Position numbers and translations under genes: made by a program
Notes under the pieces: model-generated
The model's database searches: none
Seen by the model: the letters and a program-made list of their open reading frames with translations, nothing else
What the model was told of the DNA's origin: nothing
From: a phage
Strand: one strand, 5' to 3'
DNA length: 50,768 nucleotides
Sequence record: NC_101820.1
Part shown: in pieces, positions 63 to 29,950 of the stretch
How positions within the stretch are numbered: the first letter of the stretch is position 1
How the letters are laid out: each line of letters opens with the position of its first letter

Positions 63-527
63 ATGGAACAGAAGACCACTAAGGACTATTGCGATTGGCT
101 TCGCGAGCTTGGTCGCCGCCTGGCTAGTGGCGATATTGAAGAGTATAAAATGTCACTAATTGACCTGGCCGGAATGTTAAGCGGTGACGACTGCTACAAG
201 ATCACGCGCAGTTCATCCTACAGCCGGACCATTATCAACCGCGTTCCAGAAGTAAGGGCCGCAGGTCGGGTAAGCATCAAGGTAGAGGAAACGGAAGATG
301 ATAAATTTTACGTTTTCCGCATGGTCCGCGAATCGAAAAGGAAAATCATCACACCCGAAGAATTGCCAGCCATCAAGGCAAGGGCGATCAAAAAGTTTGC
401 CGATCGCATACTGGCAGCAATCCCGAATATCGTTGACCTGGAAGGGGATAAACTGGCTGGGGCTTGCGAGGGCGTAAGCCGCTACCAGGATATGATCCGC
501 GAAATCATCAAAGAGGAAGAGCAATGA
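63..527 (+). CDS. hypothetical early protein (154 aa), first gene after the consensus promoter
   Basis: ATG at 63 preceded by GGAGGAAAGG; in frame with track ORF 30..527; no recognisable domain. Confidence 0.6.
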   Translation: MEQKTTKDYCDWLRELGRRLASGDIEEYKMSLIDLAGMLSGDDCYKITRSSSYSRTIINRVPEVRAAGRVSIKVEETEDDKFYVFRMVRESKRKIITPEELPAIKARAIKKFADRILAAIPNIVDLEGDKLAGACEGVSRYQDMIREIIKEEEQ

Positions 528-796
528 AAAAGGCATTAATCAGCGTTCTGGCGGCAATGGCATTCCTGACCGGATGCAAAGAAGATGGCGCGCATGTTGG
601 CAATGTGCAGATGGCTAACCCTGGTGATGACTACAGCGTAAGGGAGCTATTCACCGCTGACGGTTGCACCGTTTACCGATTCTATGACGATCGCACTGTT
701 TACTTCACCAACTGCAAGGGCACTACTAGCTGGGAAGTGTCGAAAAGCAATGGCAAAAGCACGAAGACAGAACATATGACCGTCGAGACAAAATAG
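524..796 (+). CDS. small lipoprotein (signal peptide with lipobox LTGC)
   Basis: ATG overlaps the upstream stop (ATGA); N-terminus MKKALISVLAAMAFLTGC; in frame with track ORF 464..796. Confidence 0.6.
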   Translation: MKKALISVLAAMAFLTGCKEDGAHVGNVQMANPGDDYSVRELFTADGCTVYRFYDDRTVYFTNCKGTTSWEVSKSNGKSTKTEHMTVETK

Positions 797-836
797 CACT
801 TTTTGTTAAAACTCAAAAACGATAACCAGGCATAAT
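794..836 (+). promoter_or_regulatory. conserved 19-nt motif with -10-like CATAAT at offset +37
   Basis: TAGCACTTTTTGTTAAAAC starts with the TAG stop of the upstream gene; CATAAT at 831-836. Confidence 0.5.
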
Positions 837-839
837 ACA

Positions 840-1010
840 CACATAGACGGGCGGCAAGGATTGCTGCGGGAGAGGAGCGACGCAGGGGCTTGATCGAAGT
901 GTCAGGATTCCCAACCGTGAGGCCAGAACTATCACACTCGCCACCAGGCAGAACGCTAGATAGGTCACTGAACTGAGGCTACCGACGAAGTGAAGCCCGT
1001 CACCAAAGAT
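840..1010 (+). ncRNA. candidate structured GC-rich leader or small RNA
   Basis: About 170 nt of GC-rich sequence without a convincing ORF; terminal complementarity GACGGGC...GCCCGTC. Confidence 0.2.
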
Positions 1011-1038
1011 TAAACGGTTATTTATGTGAAAGGGGTTA

Positions 1039-1221
1039 ATGATGGATAAGATCATCAAAATGAGCGAAGTCAAGCCGGGAATGATGGTTAAGTTTGCTGG
1101 CAAATATCGCCTAGTGCTGGATAACTGCCGCAAAGAGAACATTCTTACAATTCGTGTAAATGGCAAGGCGCAGCTATTCGCCCCTAACGCAGATATTGAC
1201 GTTGAAGTTAGAATTAAGTAA
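1039..1221 (+). CDS. hypothetical small protein (60 aa)
   Basis: Track ORF; GGGG-rich RBS a few nt upstream of the ATG. Confidence 0.5.
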   Translation: MMDKIIKMSEVKPGMMVKFAGKYRLVLDNCRKENILTIRVNGKAQLFAPNADIDVEVRIK

Positions 1222-1236
1222 TTAGGAGAAATCACC

Positions 1237-2130
1237 ATGTTAAAACTTGCTGACATTAAATTCCCGATCACCTTCGAATCTCGCGGCATTGGTCATTACA
1301 TTTTTACCGATGAAAAAACATGCCATAAGGTTGATATGAATAGCGACAAACTAAGCCCATCAGACATGGAGATTGAACACTTCATTGATGCGCACAATAC
1401 GCAGTACAACGCACTTAAAGACTATGGCTATGCAATGCCAGGATATACCAGCTTCCACTACAAGCCATATAAAGGCCAGGTGTTGCCAGTGCGCTCACCG
1501 GAACGCGCAGAGATTCCGATGGTCGAGATGAAAACATGCGACTATAAAAAGCTGTGGTGCTTAAGTGTTGACAATATCAAGTATCCGATCACGTTCTACA
1601 CGGTTGGTAATTCAACGATTCGATTCACATCGCGCGACAATGGCGTTTATAGCGATGGTACGAAATCAGAGTTGAAAGTTGATTTCTTTGTCAACGGTCA
1701 CAATAGATACAATCCGCACAACGAAAAAGATAAAGTGTATTACGTGGAAGATATTACAAAACACTTATTTGGAGAAACTCCATTCGGCGGCGGTAAGACG
1801 TCAATTCAAAAAATCATTGGCGATGAGATCCACAAAGCGGCTGCCGAAATGAAAGCGCCTGGAGGCTGGCGTATTGACAAGAGCGCATTTGCAAATCAAG
1901 AAATCGTAACGCAGGGCGCAATTGAAGATATGCCAGTTGCAGCCACTCTAAAAGGAGTCCGGCTTGATGACGGCACCTGGTATGAAGTAACGGCTACACC
2001 AAAGACGATCGAGATTCATGATGACGTTGTTATCCTTCTGCTTCACTACGGCGGCTATAAAAACCGGACGATTGCAGGTGAGATCAGCATTAAGCGCGGA
2101 ACGATGGTTAAGTGGAAGGTGAAGATTTGA
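1237..2130 (+). CDS. hypothetical protein (297 aa) with an internal duplicated segment
   Basis: Track ORF with RBS AGGAG; IKFPITFESRG...YIFTDEK recurs as IKYPITFYTVG...IRFTSRD. Confidence 0.7.
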   Translation: MLKLADIKFPITFESRGIGHYIFTDEKTCHKVDMNSDKLSPSDMEIEHFIDAHNTQYNALKDYGYAMPGYTSFHYKPYKGQVLPVRSPERAEIPMVEMKTCDYKKLWCLSVDNIKYPITFYTVGNSTIRFTSRDNGVYSDGTKSELKVDFFVNGHNRYNPHNEKDKVYYVEDITKHLFGETPFGGGKTSIQKIIGDEIHKAAAEMKAPGGWRIDKSAFANQEIVTQGAIEDMPVAATLKGVRLDDGTWYEVTATPKTIEIHDDVVILLLHYGGYKNRTIAGEISIKRGTMVKWKVKI

Positions 2131-2206
2131 GTTTGCTCACTGCGGCGCACGTCGCCGCATGGATCGGATTGTTTTCCTACCTGTTTAGCTTTTATTGAGG
2201 TGAGAG

Positions 2207-2359
2207 ATGGCTACCTGGATTTTGCTGATTCTTATGATTGATGGCGGCGTTGACCATATCGAAATGAATAGCCAGCAATCTTGCATTGAGGCACGAGAGC
2301 AGATCAAGAACAACAACTGGTTTTATGTGTACACTCACACGCTATGTATTAAGAAATAG
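2207..2359 (+). CDS. small hydrophobic peptide (50 aa), paralog of 3648..3809
   Basis: ATG at 2207 after GAGGTGAGAG; MATWILLILMIDGG...; its TAG stop is the first triplet of the 19-nt motif. Confidence 0.4.
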   Translation: MATWILLILMIDGGVDHIEMNSQQSCIEAREQIKNNNWFYVYTHTLCIKK

Positions 2360-2398
2360 CACTTTTTGTTAAAACTCAAATGTGGGGCCAGGTATAAT
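2357..2398 (+). promoter_or_regulatory. conserved 19-nt motif with TATAAT inside a GGCC hairpin loop
   Basis: TAGCACTTTTTGTTAAAAC at 2357; GGCCaggTATAATGGCC with TATAAT at 2393-2398. Confidence 0.5.
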
Positions 2399-2428
2399 GG
2401 CCTCACTTTCAACGAAGGAGATAAAACG

Positions 2429-2650
2429 ATGTACATTAAAAAGAAGATGAAATGCGTTTCCGTTAACTATGCTTGCTCTGGCATGTTCAAGCCTGGCGAA
2501 ATCTATACGGCGCAAAAACTGAAAACATCAACCGGATCTTTTTACGTGAGCAATAGTAAGGGGCATCGCATGTTCCTGAACGGCGGCGAAGGCACTAAGG
2601 TTATGGCACACGCTATGGTAATGGCTGAATTTGAGGAAGTGAAACAATGA
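2429..2650 (+). CDS. small protein (73 aa), member of a four-copy family
   Basis: ATG at 2429 after AAGGAG; shares the KCV...FYLNGG-GT...AEFEEVK pattern with 2647..2892. Confidence 0.55.
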   Translation: MYIKKKMKCVSVNYACSGMFKPGEIYTAQKLKTSTGSFYVSNSKGHRMFLNGGEGTKVMAHAMVMAEFEEVKQ

Positions 2651-2892
2651 TCATTGAAAACAATTTTCTTTGCGTTAAGAGCAATAGACCATTCTTCACA
2701 CCTGGCAAGGTGTACCAGGGCAAGAAGGACACAAGAGATGGTCACTCTTATCATGTTCACTGCAACAACGGATACAAGTTTTACCTTAACGGCGAGAATG
2801 GAACTGAGATTGTTGCGTTTGAAAACGTAGTTGCAGAGTTCGAGCAGATTACAGACGCGGAATTTGAGGAAGTGAAAGATGAAAACAAATAA
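2647..2892 (+). CDS. small protein (81 aa), tandem paralog of 2429..2650
   Basis: ATGA overlap with upstream gene; LCVKSN...FYLNGENGT...AEFEQ...AEFEEVK. Confidence 0.6.
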   Translation: MIIENNFLCVKSNRPFFTPGKVYQGKKDTRDGHSYHVHCNNGYKFYLNGENGTEIVAFENVVAEFEQITDAEFEEVKDENK

Positions 2893-3100
2893 GCGCGTCA
2901 AGCACAGGTTTACTGATAACCACGGCGACGCGATTGATGTATACAAGTTTGGCGATCGAGTTTTTATTGATGGCACGTTTGAAGGTGGGCGTAGGCCGGA
3001 TTTTAGGTCGATACTTACCGTTGACCAAGTGCGCAAGCTGGCAGATAAGTTAAATGATCTGGCAGATGAAATAGAATACAAGCAAATCCATTTTAATTGA
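2879..3100 (+). CDS. hypothetical protein (73 aa)
   Basis: Track ORF overlapping the previous gene by 14 nt. Confidence 0.45.
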   Translation: MKTNKRVKHRFTDNHGDAIDVYKFGDRVFIDGTFEGGRRPDFRSILTVDQVRKLADKLNDLADEIEYKQIHFN

Positions 3101-3111
3101 TAGGTTTTATA

Positions 3112-3651
3112 ATGAAAAAATACACTTTCGAACTATGGGGCAAGAAGTACGAATTAATCACCAGCAAGCCGATTGTTATCGTTGACCTGGACGGCACACT
3201 ATCGGACGGATCGCATCGTTTGCATTTGCTGCCAACTGAAAACTTGCACCTTACGGAATCGTGGAGCGAATTTAACAGGGCCGCCGCCGGAGATTCACCG
3301 ATTAAAAGCACGATCGCGGTTATTAACGGTTTGTGGGTGTCGGGATTTGCCATCGTCATCTTGACCGGACGCAGCGACGAAGTGCGCTATGAAACATGCA
3401 AATGGTTGAATGAGAACGGCGTGAAGTTTGACGAAATCATCATGCGCCGCCAGGAGGACAACCGAAAGGATACGGTTATTAAAGAAGAAGCCTTGCGCGC
3501 TATTGGCCTGGACAATATTGTTTGCGCCTTTGACGATTCTCCGAACGTTGTTAAGCACTTCCGCAGCCTGGGAATCACAACCTATCAGGTCACGGAATAC
3601 GACAAGCCACACGCTCACATACAATCTCACGGCGTGGAGTGTTTAAAATGA
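3112..3651 (+). CDS. HAD-superfamily phosphatase (possible nucleotidase)
   Basis: Motifs IVIVDLDGTLSDG, ILTGR, a conserved Lys and FDDSPNVV match HAD motifs I-IV; start refined to ATG 3112. Confidence 0.7.
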   Translation: MKKYTFELWGKKYELITSKPIVIVDLDGTLSDGSHRLHLLPTENLHLTESWSEFNRAAAGDSPIKSTIAVINGLWVSGFAIVILTGRSDEVRYETCKWLNENGVKFDEIIMRRQEDNRKDTVIKEEALRAIGLDNIVCAFDDSPNVVKHFRSLGITTYQVTEYDKPHAHIQSHGVECLK

Positions 3652-3809
3652 CTTGGTTGCTTTTAATATTTGTCACAAGTTACAACTCCGCAGCTATTGA
3701 GTCGCAGGAGTTCCACGGCGAATCAAGATGCCAGGAAGCGCGAAAGCAAGTTGTTCTCCACATGTCAGATAGTGGGAAGGATGTAACAGCGTTATGCGTT
3801 CGTAAATAG
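3648..3809 (+). CDS. small hydrophobic peptide (53 aa), paralog of 2207..2359
   Basis: ATGA overlap with upstream stop; MTWLLLIFV...C.EAR.Q...LCVRK; stop is the TAG of the motif. Confidence 0.4.
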   Translation: MTWLLLIFVTSYNSAAIESQEFHGESRCQEARKQVVLHMSDSGKDVTALCVRK

Positions 3810-3850
3810 CACTTTTTGCAAAAAACAGATCATCGGGCTTGCTGTATAGT
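3807..3850 (+). promoter_or_regulatory. conserved motif variant with TATAGT in the loop of a GGGCTT/AAGCCC hairpin
   Basis: TAGCACTTTTTGCAAAAAAC at 3807; TATAGT at 3845-3850. Confidence 0.45.
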
Positions 3851-3881
3851 AAGCCCATCAACAACAAACGAGGATTAAATC

Positions 3882-4145
3882 ATGGCTAACAAGATCGAGT
3901 TTTTTAAAGCTGTAGACATTATCGACGGCGCGCCTAGCTTCTTTGCTATCCATTCTATTGACGGCAAGGATATTGGGTACAACGTTATCCGTCGAGATGG
4001 AATCTCAAAACTTAGCGAACTGGTAGGGCGTATTGTGTCAAACGGGAAATGCGCATGGCCCGATTCGCCACGAGAGCCACGCCGCCGCGACATGGTAGAG
4101 CCTGTTCTGCTTTACACTCTGGTAGTAGAGGGAGAAAATAAATGA
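3882..4145 (+). CDS. hypothetical protein (87 aa)
   Basis: Track ORF; leader ACAACAAACGAGGATTAAA is nearly identical to the leader of minus-strand gene 48863..49060. Confidence 0.55.
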   Translation: MANKIEFFKAVDIIDGAPSFFAIHSIDGKDIGYNVIRRDGISKLSELVGRIVSNGKCAWPDSPREPRRRDMVEPVLLYTLVVEGENK

Positions 4146-4327
4146 TTTTGTTACTTGCTTTTTTGGTTGTTTTTCTTTACATTTCAGGCTTATTCACGTT
4201 CCGCGCGTTTGTGAAATATTCTGGCGCGACAGACAAGGACGATAAAATCGTTCTCGCTTTCTGGTTTGTTTGGGTGTGGTTAGCAATTTACGAGATCATC
4301 AGAGACAAACAGAAATTTGAGTGGTGA
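4142..4327 (+). CDS. small membrane protein (61 aa, two hydrophobic segments)
   Basis: ATGA overlap with upstream gene; hydrophobic stretches LLLAFLVVFLYISGLF and IVLAFWFVWVWLAIY. Confidence 0.5.
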   Translation: MILLLAFLVVFLYISGLFTFRAFVKYSGATDKDDKIVLAFWFVWVWLAIYEIIRDKQKFEW

Positions 4328-4386
4328 TTCTTGCTATGGCGCATTCATGCAGTGCGCCATGTTGAGAAAACCTAAAGGGGGAGACG

Positions 4387-4536
4387 ATGCGTAACTTTGA
4401 AAAAATCATTACCAAAAAGAAGCGTCGCGGGTACGATGAGCATGTGGAGCTTGTGAAAAAGCAACGCAAGAAGCGCAACGAAGACAAGAAGCGCGGGAAA
4501 AAATTTAATGCGATTTTTCGCTATGGAGATCATTAA
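4387..4536 (+). CDS. small highly basic protein (49 aa)
   Basis: Not in track (<60 aa); ATG at 4387 after AAAGGGGGAG; MRNFEKIITKKKRRGY...; preceded by hairpin ATGGCGCA/TGCGCCAT at 4336-4360. Confidence 0.35.
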   Translation: MRNFEKIITKKKRRGYDEHVELVKKQRKKRNEDKKRGKKFNAIFRYGDH

Positions 4537-4538
4537 TC

Positions 4539-5129
4539 ATGAAACGAGACATTATCATCCTTAATGGGCCGCCAGGTTGCGGGAAGGACACTATTGCAGC
4601 TTACCTAACGGGCCATCGTTACCCAGCGGTTAAGGCGTCATTCAAACAGCCGATGTTCGATATTGCGTTTTCCATGCTTGGCCCGACTCGATATGATGAG
4701 TTTATTGACCTGTACAACGACCGTGAGCAAAAAGAAAAGCCTCAAGTTATCTTAGGCGGCAAGTCACCTCGACAATTCATGATCTGGATTAGCGAGGATG
4801 TAATGAAGCCAGTCTTTGGGGATCACTATTTCGGGCGTCGCATGGTTGAAGAGATTCACGAGATGTACCGAGATTTGGCGGTTGTGATCAGTGATGGAGG
4901 ATTCCCCGAAGAAGTCAAGCCGCTTGTTAAGGCAGGGCATGATGTGCATATTTGCCGATTGCATCGCGACGGCTTCACGTTTGCTGGCGATTCGAGAGAC
5001 TACATTGACCTGAGCGGTTATCACTATCGAATCCATCACTATGACTTCCACTTGCAGGACGGCAAGCCGGAACTGGCTGTAAACGAGATCGTCAATGCTG
5101 TCAAATGGAAGCACACAAAGATTAAATAG
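4539..5129 (+). CDS. P-loop kinase, dNMP-kinase-like
   Basis: Walker A GPPGCGKDT; overall pattern resembles phage deoxynucleoside monophosphate kinases (from memory, unverified). Confidence 0.6.
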   Translation: MKRDIIILNGPPGCGKDTIAAYLTGHRYPAVKASFKQPMFDIAFSMLGPTRYDEFIDLYNDREQKEKPQVILGGKSPRQFMIWISEDVMKPVFGDHYFGRRMVEEIHEMYRDLAVVISDGGFPEEVKPLVKAGHDVHICRLHRDGFTFAGDSRDYIDLSGYHYRIHHYDFHLQDGKPELAVNEIVNAVKWKHTKIK

Positions 5130-5169
5130 CACGAATTGCTAAACGCGGGGCGCAATGCCTCGCTATAAT
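5127..5169 (+). promoter_or_regulatory. motif variant (TAGCACGAATTGCTAAAC) with TATAAT at offset +37
   Basis: TAG stop of the kinase gene at 5127-5129; TATAAT at 5164-5169. Confidence 0.45.
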
Positions 5170-5199
5170 GCAAACACCAATCAACGAGAGGAAACAATC

Positions 5200-5601
5200 A
5201 TGGTGGAGTTAAACGACATTCGCGTTGGAACAAAATTTCGCGTAACCTGGGCAGATAAATATTGTGGCGTTAGCAAGGGCCAGGTTGTTGCGGTGGATAG
5301 TATTTATCGTGGTGTTAGTGGTGACTTTCGCCGTCCGCGCATCAATGATGGCTATATCATTACTCGCCGTATTGGCTTTGATAATTATTGCGTAGTGGCG
5401 ACTCAAGGAGTTTTGATTGAGCTTAAGAGAATCAGCGATCATCGCGGTCGTCATGTTAAGGCAATGAAAACACCATTTCAGCGAGCGAGATACGATGCGC
5501 GACGTATGCGCCGACTTGCGCGAAATGCGATCAAGTTCAAAAAGCCTGGCGATGATTTTTACGGCATGTATAAGGGGATTGCTCGCAATGCTGGGAAATA
5601 A
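5200..5601 (+). CDS. hypothetical protein (133 aa)
   Basis: Start refined to ATG 5200 (RBS GAGAGG) downstream of the promoter; in frame with track ORF 5155..5601. Confidence 0.55.
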   Translation: MVELNDIRVGTKFRVTWADKYCGVSKGQVVAVDSIYRGVSGDFRRPRINDGYIITRRIGFDNYCVVATQGVLIELKRISDHRGRHVKAMKTPFQRARYDARRMRRLARNAIKFKKPGDDFYGMYKGIARNAGK

Positions 5602-5700
5602 CAATAACGCAACGAATCCTAAGCCACCTTTTGATTTTCATTCCGCAATGATTGCGGTATTATCAATGCTACTTTTTCTTTATAGCATGAGGGCGCTACT

Positions 5701-5949
5701 ATGGTTTTTAACGCATTGAAACGACTGTTTAAGCCGGAATACCGGATCGTATTTTGCCGCGACTGTTCTACTTATCATGTGCAGAGACGCAGCTTAGGCG
5801 GCAATTGGCACTATGTTACAGATGACTTTTTCGGCATCATTGCCACTGAATTTAAGTGTTATAGCGATGCTTATATGTATGTCAAGAAGCGCCACCGCTT
5901 ACGCAAGTGTCGTTTTTCCGCACTGATTCACTTTAATGATTGTTACTGA
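5701..5949 (+). CDS. hypothetical Cys-rich protein (82 aa)
   Basis: Track ORF; CRDC and C...C pairs suggest a zinc ribbon. Confidence 0.45.
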   Translation: MVFNALKRLFKPEYRIVFCRDCSTYHVQRRSLGGNWHYVTDDFFGIIATEFKCYSDAYMYVKKRHRLRKCRFSALIHFNDCY

Positions 5950-5956
5950 GGTGAAA

Positions 5957-6139
5957 ATGAAAACTGGTGTTATTATTCTTTTTCTGATCCTTTTAGGCAG
6001 CCATTTAACCATTAACTATGAGGGCATTATGGCCTTTTGGGGCAACTTGATGATGTTTGCTGCTGGTTCAATTGCTGGCTACTCTGACGGGAAAAAGGAT
6101 GGTGTGCGCAAGATGCTGATGGGGCTTAAACAAAAATAA
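5957..6139 (+). CDS. small membrane protein (60 aa)
   Basis: ATG at 5957 after GAGGTG; hydrophobic N-terminus MKTGVIILFLILLG; in frame with track ORF 5936..6139. Confidence 0.45.
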   Translation: MKTGVIILFLILLGSHLTINYEGIMAFWGNLMMFAAGSIAGYSDGKKDGVRKMLMGLKQK

Positions 6140-6150
6140 GGAGATATGAA

Positions 6151-6441: not shown

Positions 6442-6484
6442 TAGCACTTTTTGTTAAAACTTCCGCAAGGGCATTTGGTAAAGT
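6442..6484 (+). promoter_or_regulatory. conserved 19-nt motif followed by AAGGGCA/TGCCCTT hairpin
   Basis: TAGCACTTTTTGTTAAAAC at 6442; -10-like TAAAGT at 6479-6484 in the hairpin loop. Confidence 0.4.
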
Positions 6485-6516
6485 GCCCTTATTGAAGCGA
6501 AACAGAGGAAAGCGCA

Positions 6517-22754: not shown

Positions 22755-22779
22755 AAGCCGCCTTTGTGCGGCTTTTTTC
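22755..22779 (+). terminator. intrinsic terminator
   Basis: AAGCCGC ctttgt GCGGCTT followed by TTTTT. Confidence 0.65.
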
Positions 22780-22812
22780 TTGATGTTACAATGAGCAAAA
22801 AGGAGGTAGAAA

Positions 22813-23574: not shown

Positions 23575-24305
23575 TGATTAGTGCAAAAATTAAACTTGAA
23601 ATAATGCAGCACGTTAAAGAGGAATACCCTAAAGAGGCTTGCGGCGTCATAACTCAAAAGTCACGGGTACAGAAATATCACCGCATAACCAACGTGCATG
23701 ACGATCCAGAAAATCACTTTGAAATGGACGCCGTAGAATACGCTGAATCGCTCGACAAAGGCGAATTAATCGCGGTGGTGCATTCCCATTGCGGTGATGG
23801 TGCTAGTACGATACCGAGCGCGCACGACTCATGTATGTGCGATGAAATGGGTGTGTCGTGGATTATAGTTTCATGGCCCGAAGGTGATATGAGAATTGTC
23901 GAGCCGCAGGAGAGGCCGCTTATCGGTCGCCCGTGGTCGCTGGGGTCGTTCGATTGCTGGGGTCTTATCATGGCATGGCATAAACAGCACGGAGTAGTAT
24001 TGAATGACTTCCGAAAGCCTTACGAGTGGTGGAAGTCAGAATATGGTGAAAATCTTTACCAGGATAATTATTTGAAAGAGGGATTTGTTGAAACTAACGA
24101 GCCTCCAAAACCTGGTGATATGGTGATTATGCAACTATCATCACCAGTCTGGAATCATGCGGGAATTTATTTGGGTAACAACCAGCTATTACATCATGCG
24201 TTTGGAAAGCTATCTCGCATCGACTTGTATTCTGGATGGTATCAGGAGCACACTGTAAAAATTTGCCGACATAAGGATCTGAAATATGACATTGAAAGTA
24301 ATTAA
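23574..24305 (+). CDS. tail assembly protein (lambda K-like; JAB/MPN plus NlpC/P60 domains)
   Basis: HSHCGDG...S..HD (JAMM-like motif) and a downstream Cys/His peptidase-like region; start refined to ATG 23574 (TAATG overlap). Confidence 0.85.
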   Translation: MISAKIKLEIMQHVKEEYPKEACGVITQKSRVQKYHRITNVHDDPENHFEMDAVEYAESLDKGELIAVVHSHCGDGASTIPSAHDSCMCDEMGVSWIIVSWPEGDMRIVEPQERPLIGRPWSLGSFDCWGLIMAWHKQHGVVLNDFRKPYEWWKSEYGENLYQDNYLKEGFVETNEPPKPGDMVIMQLSSPVWNHAGIYLGNNQLLHHAFGKLSRIDLYSGWYQEHTVKICRHKDLKYDIESN

Positions 24306-24882
24306 GCTATCTGGTTCACTGGGGCGTAGATTTGGCGTCTTTCACAAAATGGCGGTTGACTCATACCCCGAAGCAATACGTGCGTTATCTTCCCAGGTTG
24401 AAGGGTTCAAAGACTACATGCAAAGCGAAGTAGGATCGCGCATGAAGTACGCTGTATTCGTTGATGGAAAAAACGTTGGTCAGCATGATGAAAAATCATG
24501 GAAGTGCGCGCGAGAGGTTCGAATAGTTCCTGTTCCAACTGGTTCTAAGTCCGGCGGCCTGTTCAATGTTGTTTTTGGTGCTGTAATTATGGCTACTGCG
24601 TTCATTACTGGCGGTGCAAGCCTGGCGGCTATGGGCGCTTTTGCATCTTCCGCATTTATGATGGGTGGTGCTATCGCGCTTGGCGGTGTCATGCAAATGA
24701 TCTCGCCGCAGCAGGGCGGAATGAAACTGCAAAGCCAATCAGCAGAAAATAAGCCTTCTTACGCTTTCGGCGGCGCAGTAAATACCACGGCGGCAGGTTA
24801 TCCGGTTCCTTTGCCATATGGATATAGGACAGTAGGCGGCGCGATCTGGTCGGCTGGCAGCTACGCAGAGGACAAAGCATAA
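24286..24882 (+). CDS. tail assembly protein (lambda I-like)
   Basis: 198 aa with Gly/Ala-rich hydrophobic C-terminal half; position between K and J. Confidence 0.75.
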   Translation: MTLKVIKLSGSLGRRFGVFHKMAVDSYPEAIRALSSQVEGFKDYMQSEVGSRMKYAVFVDGKNVGQHDEKSWKCAREVRIVPVPTGSKSGGLFNVVFGAVIMATAFITGGASLAAMGAFASSAFMMGGAIALGGVMQMISPQQGGMKLQSQSAENKPSYAFGGAVNTTAAGYPVPLPYGYRTVGGAIWSAGSYAEDKA

Positions 24883-24883
24883 A

Positions 24884-24926
24884 TAGCACAATATGTTAAA
24901 GCGAAAACGGATTTTCGCTTTACAAT
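24884..24926 (+). promoter_or_regulatory. motif variant (TAGCACAATATGTTAAAGC) with hairpin and TACAAT at offset +37
   Basis: Hairpin AAGCGAAAA/TTTTCGCTT; TACAAT at 24921-24926. Confidence 0.35.
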
Positions 24927-24943
24927 TAATTAAGGATGTGATC

Positions 24944-25060
24944 ATGTGGCGTGATATTTTTTATTATAATGACGGTAAGTTATTTTGGGCTGTAGACGTA
25001 GGAAGAAGGATAAAGAAAGGAAGTGAGGCAGGAAGCGGCAGAAAAGATGATAGAGATTGA
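24944..25060 (+). pseudogene. remnant of an HNH (HNH_3-type) homing endonuclease N-terminus
   Basis: 38-codon ORF MWRDIFYYNDGKLFWAVDVGRRIKKGSEAGS... matches the N-terminal pattern of phage HNH endonucleases (from memory); no catalytic region follows. Confidence 0.35.
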
Positions 25061-25102
25061 AGTTTTAAACAAATTCCACATAAACCACGGAAAGTAGATT
25101 TA

Positions 25103-25125
25103 ACCAGCATTGCGCTGGTTTTTTT
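25103..25125 (+). terminator. intrinsic terminator
   Basis: CCAGC attgc GCTGG followed by TTTTTTT. Confidence 0.6.
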
Positions 25126-25174
25126 GTGCATTTATAATGTGCAAACCAAGAAACAGCACAAAAGGTTAAAAGTC

Positions 25175-28100
25175 ATGGCTAAATATATGATAAGCGGCAG
25201 TAAGGGCGGAAGCAAAAAGCCATACGTGCCAAAAGAGATGGAAGATAACCTGATCTCGATAAACAAGATTAAAGTTTTGCTGGCTGTATCTGATGGCGAG
25301 TGCGATCCAGATTTCACGTTGCGCGATCTTTATCTTGATGATGTTCCGGTTATTGCCAGCGATGGCACTGTTAACTACGAGGGAGTTACGGCTGAATATA
25401 GACCAGGCACACAGACGCAAGATTACATCCAGGGGTTTACTGACACATCAAGCGAGGTGACAGTTTCGCGAGACATTACAACAGACAATCCCTATATTAT
25501 CTCTGTGACAAACAAAAATCTTTCTGCAATAAGAATCAAGATTCTGATGCCAGTTGGCATAAAACAGGAGGATAACGGCGATCTTGTTGGCGTAAGGGTT
25601 GAGTATGCCGTAGATATGGCTATTGATGGCGGTTCTTATAGCGAGGTTATGAGAGATGTAATTGACGGCAAGACAAGATCAGGATACGACCGCAGCAGAA
25701 GGATTGATCTTCCTAAGTTTGATGAGCGCGTTTTAATCCGAGTAAAGCGACTGACTCCAGACAGCACATCTTCAAAGGTGACTGATAAAATCAAGCTGCA
25801 AAGTTACGCTGAGGTTGTTGATGCAAAATTCCGTTATCCTCTGACTGGCCTTGTATTCGTAGAATTTGACAGCGAATTGTTTCCTACGCAAATCCCTAAC
25901 ATTTCTATAAAAAAGAAATGGAAGATTATTAATGTGCCAAGCAACTATGATCCAATATCAAGAGAATATCACGGGTCATGGGATGGGACTTTTAAAAAAG
26001 CGTGGTCAAATAATCCGGCTTGGGTTCTTTATGATCTGGTGACAAATCAGCGTTACGGACTTGATCAGCGAGAGTTAGGAATACAGATCGACAAGTGGAG
26101 CTTATACGAGGCGGGCGTTTACTGTGATCAGAAAGTTCCAGACGGCAAGGGTGGTACAGAGCCTCGCTACCTATGCGATGTGGTGATTCAGAATCAAGTT
26201 GAGGCTTATCAGCTAATCCGTGACATTTGCTCAATCTTTCGCGGAATGAGTTTTTGGAATGGTGAGAGCTTATCAATCGTGATTGATAAGCCGCGCGATC
26301 CATCATACGTGTTTACTAATGAAAACGTCATCAACGGTGATTTTCAGTACATAAACGCAAGCGAAAAAAGCATGTACACGCAGTGTAACGTGACGTTTGA
26401 CGACGAACAAAACATGTATCAGCAGGACGTAGAGGGGGTTTTTGATACTGAGGCTGCATTACGATTTGGATACAATCCAACAAGCATTACAGCGATCGGT
26501 TGTACACGCAGGAGCGAAGCGAATCGTCGCGGTCGGTGGGTTTTGAAAACAAACCTTAGAAGCACTACTGTAAACTTTGCTACCGGACTAGAGGGGATGA
26601 TTCCATCAATAGGTGATGTGATTGCTATCGCTGATAATTTTCAGAGCAGCAACCTAACGTTAAACCTATCGGGCCGAGTGATGGAAGTTTCAGGATTGCA
26701 GGTTTTCGTTCCGTTTAAGGTTGATGCTCGCCCTGGTGATTTTATTATCATCAACAAGCCGGACGGCAAGCCAGTTAAGCGCACGATCTCAAAGGTTAGC
26801 GCAGACGGAAAAACCATTGAGTTAAATATTGGATTTGGTTTTGATGTTAAGCCTGATACTGTTTTTGCGATTGACCGTACTGATCTTGCGTTGCAGCAAT
26901 ACGTTGTGACAACCATCAGCAAGGGTGATGACGAAAACGAGTTTACCTATTCAATCACGGCTGTAGAGTACGATCCGAACAAATACGACGAGATTGATTA
27001 TGGAGTAAACATTGATGACAGACCGACTTCAATTGTTCAGCCTGACGTGATGGCAGCGCCTGAGAACGTTAAGATCTCATCTTATTCTCGCGTCGTGCAG
27101 GGTGTTAGCGTTGAGACTATGGTTGTTTCATGGGATAAGGTTCCTTACGCATCGCTTTATGAAATGCAGTGGCGAAAAGGTGATGGTAACTGGCTGAATA
27201 CGCCGCAGACCGCTAACAAAGAGATAGAGGTAGAAGGGATTTACTCTGGCAACTACCAAGTAAGGGTGAGATCCGTTTCTGCAAGCGGTAACGCTTCCCC
27301 GTGGTCAAAGATTGCAACCGCCACTCTGACAGGTAAAGTTGGCGAGCCAGGAGCGCCGATTAATCTTACGGCTTCTGATAATGAAGTTTTTGGCATTCGT
27401 GTCAAATGGGGTATGCCGGAAGGATCAGGCGATACGGCTTACATTGAGCTTCACCAATCGCCAGACGGAACGGTTGAAAACTCAAGTCTGCTTACGCTGA
27501 TTCCATATCCTCAATATGAGTATTGGCATAGCACGTTACCAGCGGGGCAAGTTGTATGGTATAGAATCCGCAGCGTTGACAGAATAGGCAACGTTTCCAG
27601 TTGGACTGACTTTGTTCGCGGTATGGCGTCAGATGATGTTGAATCTGTTTTGGGCGACATTCTGGACAAGATTTTTGATACAGAAGCTGGTCAAGAAATC
27701 AAAGAGAACGCCATAGACAGCGCCAATAAAATCAAAGACCAGGCACAATCAATCATACAGAACGCGTTGGCAAATGATGCAGATGTGAAGTGGACGCGAG
27801 TGCAAAACGGAAAGCGCAAGGCTGAATATGGTCATGCTCTTGAGCTTATCGCCAATGAAACAGAAGCGCGCGTAACTCAAATCGAAGAGTTAAGGGCATC
27901 AATTGATGGCGAGATAACATCAAGCATCAAGACAGTGCAGGAGGCAATTGCCACTGAATCAGAGACGCGAGCGACTCAAATTCAGCAGCTTGATTCTAAA
28001 TTCACAAAAGAAATCGACGGCGTGCGCAAGGATACTTCTGCAAGCATTAGCGATGTAAGGCAGACAATCACTAACGAGTCAGAAGCGCGCGCTCAGGCCG

Positions 28101-28753
28101 TTCAGCAGCTTGACGCTAAGTTCACGAAAGAGATAAACGACCTTGACGGAGTTATCAAAACAGAAGTCGAGGCTAACATCTCAGAAGTGAAACAGGCGAT
28201 CGCCAATGAGACAGAGGCAAGGGTTCAGGCTGACCAGGCATTAACAGCACGATTTGGCGACGTTGAATCTGCATTGGTTGAAAAGTTGGATTCTTGGGCG
28301 AGCGTTGATTCAGTTGGCGCTAAATACGCTATGAAACTTGGCCTTACTTACAAAGGCCAGCAATACAGCGCAGGAATGGTGATGCAGCTTTCGCAGGGTT
28401 CATCCGGCCTTATCTCGCAAATTTTGTTTGATGCTAACAGGTTCGCCATTATGACTAGCTCTACTGGAGGGACTTTTACTTTGCCTTTCGTGGTTGAGAA
28501 TAATCAGGTTTTCATTAATAGTCTTTTGGTGAAGAACGGTTCAATCACTAATGCGATGATTGGTAATGTGATTCAGTCAAACAACTTTGTTCAAAACCAG
28601 CAAGGATGGAGGCTTGATAAAAACGGAATCTTTGAGAATTACGGATCAACGCCAGGAGAAGGAGCTACTAAATTCACCAATGAGGGATTGAAGGTAAAAG
28701 ATGCAAACGGAGTATTGAGGGTTGAAGTCGGAAGGATTACCGGAAGCTGGTAA
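25175..28753 (+). CDS. central tail fibre / host specificity protein (lambda J-like)
   Basis: 1192 aa; N-terminus MAKYMISGSKGGSKKPYVPKEMEDNL resembles lambda J; C-terminal ETEAR/QQLD heptad-like repeats; start refined to ATG 25175. Confidence 0.9.
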   Translation: MAKYMISGSKGGSKKPYVPKEMEDNLISINKIKVLLAVSDGECDPDFTLRDLYLDDVPVIASDGTVNYEGVTAEYRPGTQTQDYIQGFTDTSSEVTVSRDITTDNPYIISVTNKNLSAIRIKILMPVGIKQEDNGDLVGVRVEYAVDMAIDGGSYSEVMRDVIDGKTRSGYDRSRRIDLPKFDERVLIRVKRLTPDSTSSKVTDKIKLQSYAEVVDAKFRYPLTGLVFVEFDSELFPTQIPNISIKKKWKIINVPSNYDPISREYHGSWDGTFKKAWSNNPAWVLYDLVTNQRYGLDQRELGIQIDKWSLYEAGVYCDQKVPDGKGGTEPRYLCDVVIQNQVEAYQLIRDICSIFRGMSFWNGESLSIVIDKPRDPSYVFTNENVINGDFQYINASEKSMYTQCNVTFDDEQNMYQQDVEGVFDTEAALRFGYNPTSITAIGCTRRSEANRRGRWVLKTNLRSTTVNFATGLEGMIPSIGDVIAIADNFQSSNLTLNLSGRVMEVSGLQVFVPFKVDARPGDFIIINKPDGKPVKRTISKVSADGKTIELNIGFGFDVKPDTVFAIDRTDLALQQYVVTTISKGDDENEFTYSITAVEYDPNKYDEIDYGVNIDDRPTSIVQPDVMAAPENVKISSYSRVVQGVSVETMVVSWDKVPYASLYEMQWRKGDGNWLNTPQTANKEIEVEGIYSGNYQVRVRSVSASGNASPWSKIATATLTGKVGEPGAPINLTASDNEVFGIRVKWGMPEGSGDTAYIELHQSPDGTVENSSLLTLIPYPQYEYWHSTLPAGQVVWYRIRSVDRIGNVSSWTDFVRGMASDDVESVLGDILDKIFDTEAGQEIKENAIDSANKIKDQAQSIIQNALANDADVKWTRVQNGKRKAEYGHALELIANETEARVTQIEELRASIDGEITSSIKTVQEAIATESETRATQIQQLDSKFTKEIDGVRKDTSASISDVRQTITNESEARAQAVQQLDAKFTKEINDLDGVIKTEVEANISEVKQAIANETEARVQADQALTARFGDVESALVEKLDSWASVDSVGAKYAMKLGLTYKGQQYSAGMVMQLSQGSSGLISQILFDANRFAIMTSSTGGTFTLPFVVENNQVFINSLLVKNGSITNAMIGNVIQSNNFVQNQQGWRLDKNGIFENYGSTPGEGATKFTNEGLKVKDANGVLRVEVGRITGSW

Positions 28754-28780
28754 AAAAGGGGGCATAGCCCCCTTTAATTT
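28752..28780. terminator. bidirectional terminator between convergent genes
   Basis: AAAAAA GGGGGC ata GCCCCC TTTAATTTT. Confidence 0.6.
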
Positions 28781-29394
28781 TAATCATAGTGTGATGCATT
28801 TATAACCAAAACAGATGAAGCGGTGTAAATACCAACAGGTCCAGGAGTTTGTGCAACCTGCCTAGAAAAAGAGTAGATCCCGTTACCATACGCGGCAGCT
28901 TGAGACTCAAAAATCATGAATCCACCTAAAGCCGGATTAGGAACAGAGTTTAATGCTGTCAGTGATGGCATTATGGCGCAAGGATAGCCCATGTTAACAT
29001 CAAATGCGATCCCGCTTACGCCTACTTGCTTTGCATCTAGCGGCCTCATTTTTCCATGATAAACCATTTCACCATGAGCATTATAAAACGCTATGCCGTG
29101 ACTACCTGGGGGAGTCACCATATTACTAAAAGCATAAACAATAACCTCACCCTGATTATCAGATCTATCAAGTCTTATTGCGTGCCTTCCACCATTGTTA
29201 AATTGCGTGAATGATATGTATGATTTAGCGGTCAATCTAACAAAGAAAAAACATACCCTATCAACAGGAATTGACGAAGTAAAAACGGTTCCGGTATTAG
29301 CAGATATTACGGCCCGATCAATTAGATTAACTGGAGTGAAATCTGGACTTAACCATAACGATCCGTCTGATTTTTTTATACTCATCCCGTACAT
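28780..29394 (-). CDS. hypothetical protein (204 aa), tail-fibre-region gene
   Basis: Track ORF 28780..29406; start refined to ATG 29394 after GGGGGTG. Confidence 0.5.
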   Translation of the reverse strand: MYGMSIKKSDGSLWLSPDFTPVNLIDRAVISANTGTVFTSSIPVDRVCFFFVRLTAKSYISFTQFNNGGRHAIRLDRSDNQGEVIVYAFSNMVTPPGSHGIAFYNAHGEMVYHGKMRPLDAKQVGVSGIAFDVNMGYPCAIMPSLTALNSVPNPALGGFMIFESQAAAYGNGIYSFSRQVAQTPGPVGIYTASSVLVINASHYD

Positions 29395-29396
29395 TA

Positions 29397-29675
29397 TCAC
29401 CCCCAAAAAGTATATATATATCTTGAATCAGATCCAGAAAGCCCACTCCATGTAACGGTGTCGCCACTTACCCCTAAGTTTGGTGCGCCAGGGTCGCCAC
29501 CACGCCAGGAATTCATGCCAACATATATTGCTTTCAATGATTTACCTGGCGGCCTGTTTTGGTAAGTCTTGCTACCTGATGGCTGAGTGAATTTATCAAG
29601 GAAGAAAACAGGCGTTAAAAGTCCTGTAACTTCCCTTCCTCGATCGTCATATATTGCATAACCATATTGCGCCAT
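29397..29675 (-). CDS. hypothetical protein (92 aa)
   Basis: Track ORF in operon with the lipoprotein gene. Confidence 0.5.
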   Translation of the reverse strand: MAQYGYAIYDDRGREVTGLLTPVFFLDKFTQPSGSKTYQNRPPGKSLKAIYVGMNSWRGGDPGAPNLGVSGDTVTWSGLSGSDSRYIYTFWG

Positions 29676-29950
29676 TAATTACACCTCAAATCAATAAATT
29701 TACTTTCATTTTGCCAACGGTTGATAAATTTAACTTCTTTATTGTCAACGCTCAACCTGTATTGCTTTTGGCTGAATCTGTTTTCGCGGACTGCATTAAT
29801 TTTGACTTCATGGAATCCGTTAACAGGGAATGTTTTAACGTTAAATTTTGCCGTGCAATCGATCTCCTTGAAGTTGCCAGTAGGCGACGCTGCGCATCCT
29901 GTCAGAGCGGCTACAGTGGCGATAACTGCGATTAACTTTTTCATCTTCAA
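29675..29950 (-). CDS. lipoprotein (candidate Cor/Llp-like superinfection-exclusion protein)
   Basis: MKMKKLIAVIATVAALTGC signal peptide with lipobox; RBS AAGGAG; placed next to tail fibre genes. Confidence 0.55.
   Translation of the reverse strand: MKMKKLIAVIATVAALTGCAASPTGNFKEIDCTAKFNVKTFPVNGFHEVKINAVRENRFSQKQYRLSVDNKEVKFINRWQNESKFIDLRCN

What the first reader, a model, noticed from the sequence alone, without database searches (positions are those of the whole stretch)
524..29950. Two secreted lipoproteins as candidate superinfection-exclusion factors
524..796 (early arm) and 29675..29950 (first gene of the operon next to the tail fibre genes) both have a signal peptide ending in lipobox LTGC. 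T1/phi80-type phages are known to use small lipoproteins (Cor, Llp) to block their own outer-membrane receptor. The second gene is in the classical position; the first would be an additional early-expressed one.
Basis: partly seen in the sequence, partly recalled or inferred. Interest (0 to 1): 0.45.

Follow-up and report, generated by a model that had tools for sequence, protein, structure and literature searches.

The report
One receptor-blocking lipoprotein, one unknown lipoprotein
This T1-like coliphage encodes two genuine small lipoproteins: the one beside the tail-tip genes is most likely the expected "block my own receptor" protein (probably for BtuB, not FhuA), while the early one belongs to an uncharacterised family and shows no link to the phage's receptor.

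Summary
Both ORFs carry a lipoprotein signal peptide ending in LTGC. Only three such ORFs occur in six frames, against 0.18 in shuffles; the third is the u-spanin.

The window is a Warwickvirus (Drexlerviridae), 99.9% identical to phage tonn over the stretch compared.

ORF2's true start is the ATG at 29944, giving 89 aa. It is the first gene of a tight three-gene minus-strand operon convergent with gpJ. This cassette replaces the T1-type Cor/ST32/ST31 cassette at the same site. It occurs in the BtuB-dependent phages Bas04 (98-99% identity) and Bas06, and in FhuA-independent JLBYU phages. FhuA-dependent relatives carry T1-type Cor instead.

ORF2 shares the Cor/Llp cysteine framework, but mature-domain similarity is weak. 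It fails the curated Cor model (19.2 vs 31 bits). The best reading is a Cor/Llp-like blocker of BtuB. This kind is already anticipated in the literature and is untested experimentally.

ORF1 is a DUF4884 lipoprotein, the second gene behind a 12/12 sigma-70 promoter. Its alleles do not follow receptor type: BtuB and FhuA phages share 98%-identical alleles. Blocking of the phage's own receptor is therefore not supported, and its function remains unknown.

The parts
4..31 (+). Sigma-70 consensus promoter (TTGACA, 16-nt spacer, TATAAT) driving the DUF7174-ORF1 operon
   Evidence: 12 of 12 matches in the scan. It lies at the edge of the roughly 700-bp intergenic region seen in phage tonn. Function as an immediate-early promoter is inferred.
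63..527 (+). DUF7174 gene, 154 aa, first gene of the early operon. Its stop overlaps the ORF1 start (ATGA).
   Evidence: Pfam PF23796 E=5.6e-51 and phrog_4841. The start at 63 follows the tonn annotation and has a GGAGG ribosome-binding site.
524..796 (+). ORF1: 90-aa lipoprotein of family DUF4884 (lipobox LTGC, Cys18; internal Cys48 and Cys64)
   Evidence: PF16225, 32.5 bits against a gathering cut-off of 30; phrog_6360; conserved core LFTxDGCTVYRFYD...YFTNCKG.
25175..28753 (+). gpJ-like central tail fibre / tail tip protein
   Evidence: It is 72% identical to T1 gp33 over the first 900 aa. The start coordinate follows the tonn annotation.
28755..28775 (.). GC-rich palindromic hairpin between the convergent stops of gpJ and the 204-aa gene; likely a shared terminator
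   Evidence: The scan called it a terminator-like site on the + strand only; use as a shared or bidirectional terminator is inferred from its palindromic stem and its position between two convergent stops.
28780..29394 (-). 204-aa protein with no signal peptide; third gene of the cassette and candidate receptor-binding protein or adaptor
   Evidence: phrog_425 E=1e-49. 98% identical to Bas04 and 64% to Bas06, both BtuB phages. 26% identity (E=1e-7) to the ST31-like protein of the FhuA phage PeterMerian. The RBP role is taken from PMC8594841 and bioRxiv 10.64898/2026.04.02.716166.
29397..29675 (-). 92-aa protein with no signal peptide; second gene of the cassette. Its ATG overlaps the ORF2 stop by 1 nt.
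   Evidence: phrog_557 E=4e-20. 99% identical to Bas04 and 70% to Bas06; no tblastn hit in the FhuA-type phages. Sequence.
29675..29944 (-). ORF2: 89-aa lipoprotein (lipobox LTGC, Cys17; Cys30 and Cys88). Cor/Llp-like candidate blocker of BtuB and first gene of the cassette.
29976..30019 (-). Promoter-like element (AATAGCACTTTTTGCTAAA, imperfect hairpin, TATAGT) 57 nt upstream of the ORF2 ATG
   Evidence: One of 19 copies of this element in the window, against 0.06 expected. The same element precedes the FhuA-type cor gene of JakobBernoulli.

Best explanation
The finding covers two unrelated genes.

(1) ORF2 (29675..29944, minus strand) is the receptor-blocking ('lytic conversion' or superinfection-exclusion) lipoprotein of this phage's host-recognition cassette. 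It is exported, lipidated at Cys17 and sorted to the inner leaflet of the outer membrane. Its roughly 70-residue beta domain is closed by a Cys30-Cys88 disulfide joining its two ends, as in T5 Llp and T1 Cor. By analogy with the solved FhuA-Llp complex, it would bind the periplasmic face or plug of the phage's own TonB-dependent receptor and lock the receptor in a state the tail tip cannot use. Here that receptor is most likely BtuB, not FhuA. The effect would be to prevent superinfection and to stop progeny being lost on cell debris. ORF2 is co-transcribed and translationally coupled with the two tail-tip accessory/RBP genes (92 aa and 204 aa). The whole three-gene cassette moves horizontally as a unit.

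(2) ORF1 (524..796, plus strand) is a real immediate-early outer-membrane lipoprotein of family DUF4884. It is not matched to the phage's terminal receptor. The most likely reading, at low confidence, is that it acts on a conserved envelope component as a receptor-independent host-takeover or exclusion function.

Shown here: lipoprotein signals, gene order, co-variation with receptor type, cysteine framework and predicted fold class. Inferred: the disulfide, binding to BtuB, the allosteric mechanism, expression timing, and any function of ORF1.
For: Identity of the phage: 99.9% identity to Warwickvirus tonn over window 28500-30500.

ORF2 position: T1 has J(+), ST32(+), ST31(+), cor(-), exoVIII(+). 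The window has J(+), 204 aa(-), 92 aa(-), lipoprotein(-), exoVIII(+).

Co-variation with receptor type:
- The three window proteins are 98-99% identical in Bas04 FritzSarasin and 56-70% identical in Bas06 KarlJaspers. Both phages were experimentally assigned to BtuB (PMC8594841 S5 Table).
- FhuA phages Bas05, Bas07 and T1 carry T1-type Cor/ST32/ST31 at the same site.
- JLBYU01, 07 and 19 carry the window-type lipoprotein at 94% identity or more; for JLBYU01 and JLBYU19 the whole 2-kb locus is at least 99.6% identical. They are reported as not FhuA-dependent. JLBYU41, which carries FhuA-type Cor, is FhuA-dependent (PMC10373560).

Remote homology between the cassette types: 204-aa protein vs PeterMerian ST31-like, 26% identity, E=1e-7; T1 Cor vs the Bas06 lipoprotein, 35% over 68 of 75 aa, E=5e-5.

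Similarity of ORF2 to Cor/Llp:
- Cysteine framework: 25 family members keep the lipobox Cys, a Cys in an E-[VI]-D-C-x-[AG]-x-[YF] motif and a penultimate C-terminal Cys. T1 Cor has ERTCTAIY...HDCSI. T5 Llp has a Cys11-Cys58 disulfide 'constraining the termini', shared with Cor (PMC9586334).
- The top PDB sequence hit of the family profile is Llp 8a60_B (E=0.005).
- hhalign against the Cor family gives 97.9% probability at full length. With mature domains only it gives P=0.008, aligned end to end with both Cys paired.
- BFVD matches include phage lipoproteins (E=1e-5) and the 'receptor-blocking protein' of Yersinia phage phiR2-01 (E=0.03).

Linkage to J in other lineages: the same three-gene cassette is present in Dhillonvirus PTXU06, and the lipoprotein lies directly after J in Providencia phage PSTCR4.

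Literature: the J-downstream locus encodes RBPs plus cognate exclusion proteins (PMC8594841). [quoted passage not shown]

ORF1:
- DUF4884 hit above the Pfam cut-off.
- 12/12 sigma-70 promoter and ATGA coupling with the upstream gene.
- Family alleles are 98% identical between Bas04 (BtuB) and Bas05 (FhuA), and 98% between Bas06 (BtuB) and Bas07 (FhuA). The window and Bas04 share a 99%-identical ORF2 but only a 46%-identical ORF1.
- The window-type ORF1 allele (97.8%) occurs in SLUR29 and vB_Eco-B1.2, which carry FhuA-type Cor.
- ORF1 has no match in T1.
Against: No experiment exists on this protein or on any BtuB-type Drexlerviridae lipoprotein.

Sequence membership of Cor is not met. The mature domain gives no PHROG Cor hit. 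NCBIfam Cor scores 19.2 bits against a cut-off of 31. Mature-only hhalign probability is 4.9%.

The BtuB assignment rests on two BASEL phages with measured receptors plus FhuA-independence of the JLBYU phages. The receptor of this particular phage is not known.

Co-transcription with virion genes implies the same timing as the RBPs, unlike T5 llp, which is early (Decker et al. 1994, cited). The 'exclusion of superinfection early in infection' part may therefore not apply.

In Privateervirus phages, family members lie among metabolic and early genes rather than near tail genes.

For ORF1, independence from receptor type argues against blocking of the phage's own receptor but gives no positive evidence for any function. 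Its AF2 model is poor (pLDDT 61).
Confidence: 0.62

Rival explanations
1. One reading: both lipoproteins block the phage's own outer-membrane receptor, ORF1 early and ORF2 from the classical cor position.
For: Both are outer-membrane-type lipoproteins. ORF1 lies behind a consensus early promoter. T5 llp is an early gene (Decker et al. 1994, cited).
Against: ORF1-family alleles are 98% identical between BtuB and FhuA phages. The window-type allele also occurs with FhuA-type Cor. ORF1 lacks the termini-joining Cys framework: its Cys pair is internal, at Cys48/Cys64. Mature-domain hhalign against Cor and against ORF2 gives nothing (P=0.13 and 0.39). The family occurs in phages of distant hosts, outside tail regions in the two contexts examined.
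Confidence: 0.06
2. ORF2 is a plain Cor orthologue that blocks FhuA, as in T1 and phi80.
For: The best PHROG and NCBIfam hits are Cor. One GenBank record (phage Kalemo) labels the 97%-identical protein 'Cor superinfection exclusion protein'. The position and strand are the same as in T1.
Against: ORF2 is only 25-27% identical to FhuA-type Cor proteins, which are 55-89% identical to each other. Phages with this cassette use BtuB or are FhuA-independent. The score is below the curated Cor cut-off, and the PHROG hit is carried by the signal peptide.
Confidence: 0.05
3. ORF1 is a receptor-independent exclusion or envelope-takeover factor. It would be an immediate-early periplasm-facing lipoprotein acting on a conserved envelope component (for example a TonB/Tol-linked or outer-membrane biogenesis component), and so affect many phages or colicins rather than one receptor.
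For: It has immediate-early placement. Its core motif is highly conserved across phages of Escherichia, Serratia, Pantoea, Pseudomonas and Xanthomonas. It occurs in early or accessory regions of a phage contig of more than 120 kb and of a 71-kb phage carrying queuosine-biosynthesis genes. It is independent of receptor type.
Against: There is no positive functional evidence. No hit was found to any annotated exclusion family in PHROGs, NCBIfam or PADLOC. Two divergent alleles (46% identity) coexist in one genus, so the target need not be invariant. T1 lacks the gene.
Confidence: 0.3
4. One of the two lipoproteins is a lysis protein (o-spanin or u-spanin).
For: Weak PHROG hits of ORF2 to Rz-like spanins (E about 0.08).
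Against: Those hits cover only the signal peptide (residues 3-25). A complete holin / SAR-endolysin / u-spanin cassette lies at 42963..44061, and its u-spanin has its own lipobox and a C-terminal transmembrane segment. Neither ORF1 nor ORF2 has a transmembrane segment or an overlapping i-spanin partner.
Confidence: 0.02

Closest known systems
Cor, the phage exclusion lipoprotein of T1, phi80, N15 and HK022 (NCBIfam NF047972, PHROG 1119)
   Same: ORF2 is a small outer-membrane lipoprotein with the same genomic slot and strand relative to gpJ and exoVIII. It has the same three-cysteine framework (lipid Cys, Cys in ExxC[TV][AG]x[YF], C-terminal Cys). It is accompanied by two proteins of the same PHROG families as T1 ST32 and ST31.
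   Different: Identity is only 25-27%. ORF2 is 14 residues longer and scores below the curated cut-off, and mature-domain similarity is marginal. The two partner genes are inverted and co-transcribed with the lipoprotein instead of with J. The cassette is associated with BtuB rather than FhuA. ORF1 shares nothing with Cor beyond a signal peptide.
Llp, the lytic conversion lipoprotein of phage T5 (PDB 8A60 chain B), and the non-homologous BtuB-blocking Llp of BF23-type T5-like phages
   Different: There is no significant full-length sequence or Foldseek similarity. T5 llp is transcribed early and divergently from pb5, whereas ORF2 is in one operon with the RBP candidates. The match to the phiR2-01 'receptor-blocking protein' is weak (E=0.03, TM 0.43).
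Superinfection-exclusion accessory protein of phage Rtp in the LptD-type RBP cassette
   Same: It occupies the same locus downstream of gpJ in Drexlerviridae. It is an accessory protein encoded beside the RBP and binds the periplasmic face of the receptor (reported in bioRxiv 10.64898/2026.04.02.716166).
   Different: The receptor is different and is not TonB-dependent. No sequence comparison was made here.
Pfam DUF4884 (PF16225), for ORF1
   Same: ORF1 scores 32.5 bits against a gathering cut-off of 30. 21 of the 23 homologues found carry the same precomputed domain.
   Different: The family has no known function. The only two papers in the library that mention it give none.

Membership tests
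Cor (NF047972 / PHROG 1119) | Score at or above the curated family cut-off | tested here: not met
   ORF2 scores 19.2 bits against a cut-off of 31; T1 Cor scores 55.8; ORF1 has no hit. The PHROG 1119 hit of ORF2 (E=9e-8) is lost when the signal peptide is removed.
Cor (NF047972 / PHROG 1119) | Lipoprotein signal peptide with lipobox | tested here: met
   Both ORFs. The lipobox Cys is invariant among the aligned full-length homologues.
Cor (NF047972 / PHROG 1119) | Mature domain homologous to Cor | tested here: inconclusive
   ORF2 family vs Cor family: 97.9% probability at full length, but mature-only P=0.008 with probability 4.9%, aligned end to end with both Cys paired. T1 Cor vs the Bas06 homologue: 35% over 68 of 75 aa, E=5e-5. 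ORF1 vs Cor: nothing (P=0.13 over 5 columns).
Cor / Llp class | Conserved Cys pair placed to join the N- and C-terminal ends of the mature domain (the disulfide itself is inferred) | tested here: met
   ORF2: Cys30 and Cys88 of 89, invariant in 25 sequences. T1 Cor: Cys25 and Cys73 of 75. Llp: Cys11-Cys58 (PMC9586334). Not met for ORF1, whose pair is internal (Cys48/Cys64). Disulfide formation itself was not tested.
Cor / Llp class | Encoded beside the receptor-recognition genes and co-varying with receptor specificity | tested here: met
   ORF2: together with receptor data. Not met for ORF1.
Cor / Llp class | Expression blocks adsorption through the cognate receptor (FhuA for Cor and Llp) | not testable with these tools
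   This needs plating and adsorption assays. Comparative data point to BtuB rather than FhuA for ORF2.
T5 Llp fold (PDB 8A60_B) | Specific structural similarity of the mature domain | tested here: inconclusive
DUF4884 (PF16225) | Score at or above the Pfam gathering cut-off | tested here: met
   ORF1 scores 32.5 bits against 30. The mature domain alone still hits phrog_6360 (E=1.5e-4).
Spanins (o-spanin / u-spanin) | Location in the lysis cassette, with a C-terminal transmembrane segment (u-spanin) or an embedded/overlapping i-spanin partner (o-spanin) | tested here: not met
   Neither ORF has these features. The phage has its own u-spanin at 43669..44061, next to the holin and SAR endolysin.

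The most novel reading that the evidence does not exclude
ORF1 represents a widespread, uncharacterised class of immediate-early phage lipoproteins (DUF4884). On this reading it acts on a conserved envelope component rather than on the phage's own receptor, as a receptor-independent exclusion or envelope-takeover function shared by unrelated phages of Escherichia, Serratia, Pantoea, Pseudomonas and Xanthomonas. It may be built from a single beta-propeller-blade-like unit that oligomerises.
Probability: 0.2. Interest if true: 0.55.

Novelty: new member of a known kind. Interest (0 to 1): 0.25.

Why it matters
If ORF2 blocks BtuB, it would be the first defined BtuB-blocking lipoprotein in Drexlerviridae. 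It would show that the Cor/Llp 'jam the TonB-dependent transporter from the periplasm' strategy has diversified along with the exchangeable receptor cassette. That is useful for predicting cross-exclusion in phage cocktails, and as a small genetic tool to switch off BtuB.

The practical gain here is mostly a correction. The likely target is BtuB rather than FhuA. Database labels of 'Cor' for this protein rest on the signal peptide. The second lipoprotein should not be annotated as an exclusion factor.

The idea itself is already present in the literature (PMC8594841, PMC9586334, PMC13164509), so the surprise value is low.

Tried and rejected
1. The PHROG 'Cor' hit was not accepted as proof of homology. 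Re-scanning the mature domain alone gave no Cor hit.

2. The full-length hhalign result (97.9%) was judged inflated by the signal peptide. The mature-only run gave P=0.008, with ORF1 as a negative control.

3. phmmer of ORF2 against PDB sequences returned only chance hits.

5. The ORF1 structure prediction was too poor (pLDDT 61, pTM 0.36) to justify a fold search, so none was run.

6. PADLOC returned no hit for any of the five proteins tested.

7. NCBIfam hits for ORF1 covered only the signal peptide.

8. The spanin idea was rejected because the phage has its own complete lysis cassette.

9. The context of the ORF2 homologue in Proteus phage 3H10_20 is not near tail genes, so it was uninformative for function.

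10. The C-terminal 150 aa of gpJ did not discriminate receptor type: 90% identity to a FhuA phage and 91% to a BtuB phage.

11. A literature search for DUF4884 found no functional data.

Full report
What the window is. The stretch 28500-30500 is 99.9% identical to Escherichia phage tonn (Drexlerviridae, Tempevirinae, Warwickvirus). It is at least 99% identical in 29 phage records, including JK16, swan01 and SECphi27. The gene order matches T1-like phages: structural genes ending in a gpJ-like tail tip protein, then a small variable locus, then exonuclease VIII, Erf and SSB.

Check of the observation. ORF1 (524..796, +) reads MKKALISVLAAMAFLTGC... and ORF2 (minus strand, ending at 29675) reads MKKLIAVIATVAALTGC.... 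Both have a basic n-region, an uncharged hydrophobic core and an L-T-G-C lipobox. I scanned every possible start codon in all six frames with a strict lipoprotein-signal rule. The scan returned three ORFs: these two and the u-spanin of the lysis cassette. Forty shuffled genomes gave a mean of 0.18 and never more than one. The lipobox cysteine is invariant among the aligned full-length homologues, down to about 40% identity for ORF1 and 24% for ORF2. One coordinate needs correcting. The TTG at 29950 lies inside the spacer between an AAGGAG ribosome-binding site and the ATG at 29944. All homologues and the annotations of tonn and Bas04 start at that ATG. ORF2 is therefore 29675..29944, 89 aa. 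Neither protein has Asp at +2, so by the Lol sorting rule (established knowledge) both should end up in the inner leaflet of the outer membrane.

ORF2 and its cassette. On the minus strand, ORF2 is followed by a 92-aa gene whose ATG overlaps the ORF2 stop by one base. A 204-aa gene starts two bases after the 92-aa stop. The operon ends at a GC-rich palindromic hairpin that also follows the gpJ stop. The 92-aa and 204-aa proteins have no signal peptide. They fall in phrog_557 (E=4e-20) and phrog_425 (E=1e-49), the same PHROG labels that T1 gp32 and gp31 carry. In T1 those two genes follow J on the plus strand and cor lies alone on the minus strand. In the window the pair is inverted and fused into one operon behind the lipoprotein. 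A 2026 paper calls the T1 arrangement the 'extended cor cassette' and links it to FhuA (PMC13164509). The BASEL papers and a 2026 preprint describe this locus as encoding the receptor-binding proteins together with cognate exclusion proteins, with alleles that match the receptor (PMC8594841; 10.64898/2026.04.02.716166).

Which receptor. I fetched T1 and four BASEL Tempevirinae phages with measured receptors and compared them locally.
- The window's three proteins are 98-99% identical in Bas04 FritzSarasin and 56-70% identical in Bas06 KarlJaspers. Both are BtuB phages (S5 Table).
- Bas05 PeterMerian is in the same genus as the window and its J protein is 98% identical over the first 900 aa. 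Bas07 JakobBernoulli and T1 were also compared. All three use FhuA, and all three carry T1-type Cor/ST32/ST31 at the same site.
- The J-locus lipoproteins fall into two clean groups. Within groups identity is 55-99%; between groups it is 25-36%.
- JLBYU01, 07 and 19 carry the window-type lipoprotein at 94% identity or more, and for JLBYU01 and JLBYU19 the whole 2-kb locus is at least 99.6% identical. They were reported as not FhuA-dependent. JLBYU41 carries FhuA-type Cor and is FhuA-dependent (PMC10373560).
- The same three-gene cassette, in the same order, is present in Dhillonvirus PTXU06. A family member lies directly after gpJ in Providencia phage PSTCR4.
The cassette therefore travels as a unit, and in every case with data it goes with BtuB or with FhuA-independence. 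The receptor of this exact phage has not been measured, so BtuB is an inference.

Is ORF2 a Cor? By curated sequence rules it is not. The PHROG 1119 'Cor' hit (E=9e-8) vanishes when only the mature 72 residues are scanned. The NCBIfam Cor model gives 19.2 bits against a cut-off of 31, while T1 Cor gives 55.8. Direct BLASTP against T1 Cor aligns only the signal peptide and a few residues beyond it.

There are nevertheless consistent signs of remote relationship:
- A profile of 25 family members, gathered by an exhaustive HMM search, aligns with a profile of 20 Cor proteins at 97.9% probability.
- After removing the signal peptides the alignment still runs end to end with both cysteines paired, but only at P=0.008.
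- The same test with ORF1 as a control gives nothing.
- T1 Cor aligns to the Bas06 homologue over 68 of 75 residues (35% identity, E=5e-5).
- The 204-aa protein aligns to the ST31-like protein of PeterMerian (26% identity, E=1e-7).
- The family keeps three invariant cysteines: the lipid-modified Cys, a Cys 8-13 residues later in an E-[VI]-D-C-x-[AG]-x-[YF] motif, and a penultimate Cys. T1 Cor has ERTCTAIY...HDCSI.
- T5 Llp has a Cys11-Cys58 disulfide 'constraining the termini' that it shares with Cor (PMC9586334).
- Llp is the best hit of the ORF2 family profile in the whole PDB sequence set (E=0.005).

Mechanism proposed for ORF2. I take the FhuA-Llp structure as the model (PMC9586334). There Llp binds the periplasmic face of FhuA, holds the plug in a non-native state and folds two extracellular loops over the phage binding site. 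The authors argue that the same trick should work on other TonB-dependent transporters. BF23 shows that BtuB is blocked by a non-homologous Llp in T5-like phages (PMC10644984). I therefore propose that ORF2 binds the periplasmic side of BtuB.

One difference from T5 and T1 is worth noting. In the window the lipoprotein is co-transcribed and translationally coupled with the tail-tip genes. Its timing should therefore follow theirs, which fits protection of progeny from debris better than very early exclusion. The operon is preceded by a promoter-like element that occurs 19 times in the genome. That element also precedes the FhuA-type cor gene of JakobBernoulli. Its timing class is unknown.

ORF1. 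It is the second gene of an operon that starts with a DUF7174 gene (63..527). The ORF1 ATG overlaps the DUF7174 stop (ATGA). The operon lies behind a perfect TTGACA-16-TATAAT promoter at 4-31, next to the long intergenic region seen in tonn. 'Early' is therefore a fair inference.

ORF1 belongs to Pfam DUF4884 (32.5 bits, cut-off 30) and phrog_6360, both of unknown function. The core LFTxDGCTVYRFYDxxxxYFTNCKG, with an internal Cys pair, is strongly conserved. Homologues occur in 118 phage records, including Serratia, Pantoea, Pseudomonas and Xanthomonas phages. They also occur in the early or accessory regions of a phage contig of more than 120 kb and of a 71-kb phage carrying queuosine-biosynthesis genes.

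The decisive test is co-variation with the receptor:
- The ORF1-family proteins of Bas04 (BtuB) and Bas05 (FhuA) are 98% identical, as are those of Bas06 (BtuB) and Bas07 (FhuA).
- The window and Bas04 have 99%-identical ORF2 proteins but only 46%-identical ORF1 proteins.
- The window-type ORF1 allele (97.8%) is present in SLUR29 and vB_Eco-B1.2, which carry FhuA-type Cor.
- T1 has no ORF1 homologue.
ORF1 shows no similarity to Cor, Llp or ORF2 beyond the signal peptide and matches no PADLOC model. A protein that must fit the phage's own receptor would be expected to change with that receptor. What ORF1 does is unknown. My low-confidence guess is a receptor-independent action on a conserved envelope component. 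Its AlphaFold2 model is too poor to use (pLDDT 61).

Comparison with the known, and novelty. ORF2 works most like Cor and Llp and sits where cor sits. It fails the curated Cor test, and I file it as a divergent, BtuB-associated member of the Cor/Llp class rather than as Cor. The existence of such proteins at this locus has been stated or implied in the literature:
- Maffei et al. 2021 describe cognate exclusion proteins at this locus.
- van den Berg et al. [quoted passage not shown]
- The KanT1 paper notes a Cor-like protein in a BtuB-using Tempevirinae phage.
None of them has tested it. This is therefore a new member of a known kind, of modest interest. The ORF1 half of the finding is a real gene, but the proposed function is not supported.

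Noticed in passing
window, 19 sites: 792, 2355, 3805, 5125, 6440, 10628, 24882, 35995, 37557, 40046, 41117 (+); 15276, 19028, 30019, 44382, 46544, 47218, 49136, 50441 (-): A conserved 19-nt element, AATAGCACTTTTTGYTAAA, occurs 19 times against 0.06 expected. At most sites it is followed by a short hairpin, a TATAAT-like hexamer about 19-21 nt downstream, and a ribosome-binding site plus ATG. Four sites (15276, 19028, 35995, 37557) show no nearby start. Exact copies also occur in T1 and in all Tempevirinae genomes fetched. It looks like a family-wide promoter class whose upstream element lies too far from the -10 to be an ordinary -35. Its timing class and any factor that reads it are unknown.
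   Followed up: partly
window 4-31: A perfect 12/12 sigma-70 consensus promoter (TTGACA, 16-nt spacer, TATAAT) lies at the start of the DUF7174-ORF1 operon. It borders the roughly 700-bp gene-free region seen in phage tonn.
   Followed up: partly
window 28780-29675 (-): The KanT1 paper (PMC13164509) reports that the BtuB-using Tempevirinae phage lacks the 'outer membrane protein' of the cor cassette. Here the 92-aa gene hits phrog_557 at E=4e-20. The BtuB-type cassette therefore has all three genes, but inverted and fused into one operon behind the lipoprotein.
   Followed up: yes
window 527/524 junction, compared with L003 43263-43266: A mosaic breakpoint lies exactly between the DUF7174 gene and ORF1. 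Bas04 is 99.4% identical to the window in DUF7174 but only 46% identical in the ORF1 homologue. ORF1 is therefore an exchangeable module with at least two allele types within Warwickvirus.
   Followed up: partly
window 640-760 (ORF1 residues 40-78): The DUF4884 core weakly resembles a single blade of PQQ-type or designed beta-propellers. The 'Cake' proteins (6tji and related entries) match at about 5.7 bits per blade, which is significant only when summed over the repeats. The Pfam Lipoprotein_15 repeat also matches at E=0.013. This hints that ORF1 may be a single-blade unit that oligomerises.
   Followed up: no
window 42963-44061 (+): The lysis cassette comprises a holin (71 aa), a SAR-type endolysin (163 aa) and a u-spanin (130 aa) with lipobox LSGC and a C-terminal transmembrane segment. 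The u-spanin is the third and only other lipoprotein in the genome.
   Followed up: yes
L007 (Proteus phage 3H10_20) 5028-5276: A distant member of the ORF2 family (30% identity) sits among tRNA, NAD-salvage and RNA-ligase genes of a 90-kb Grimontviridae phage, far from tail genes. Not every member of this lipoprotein family is linked to a receptor-recognition locus.
   Followed up: partly
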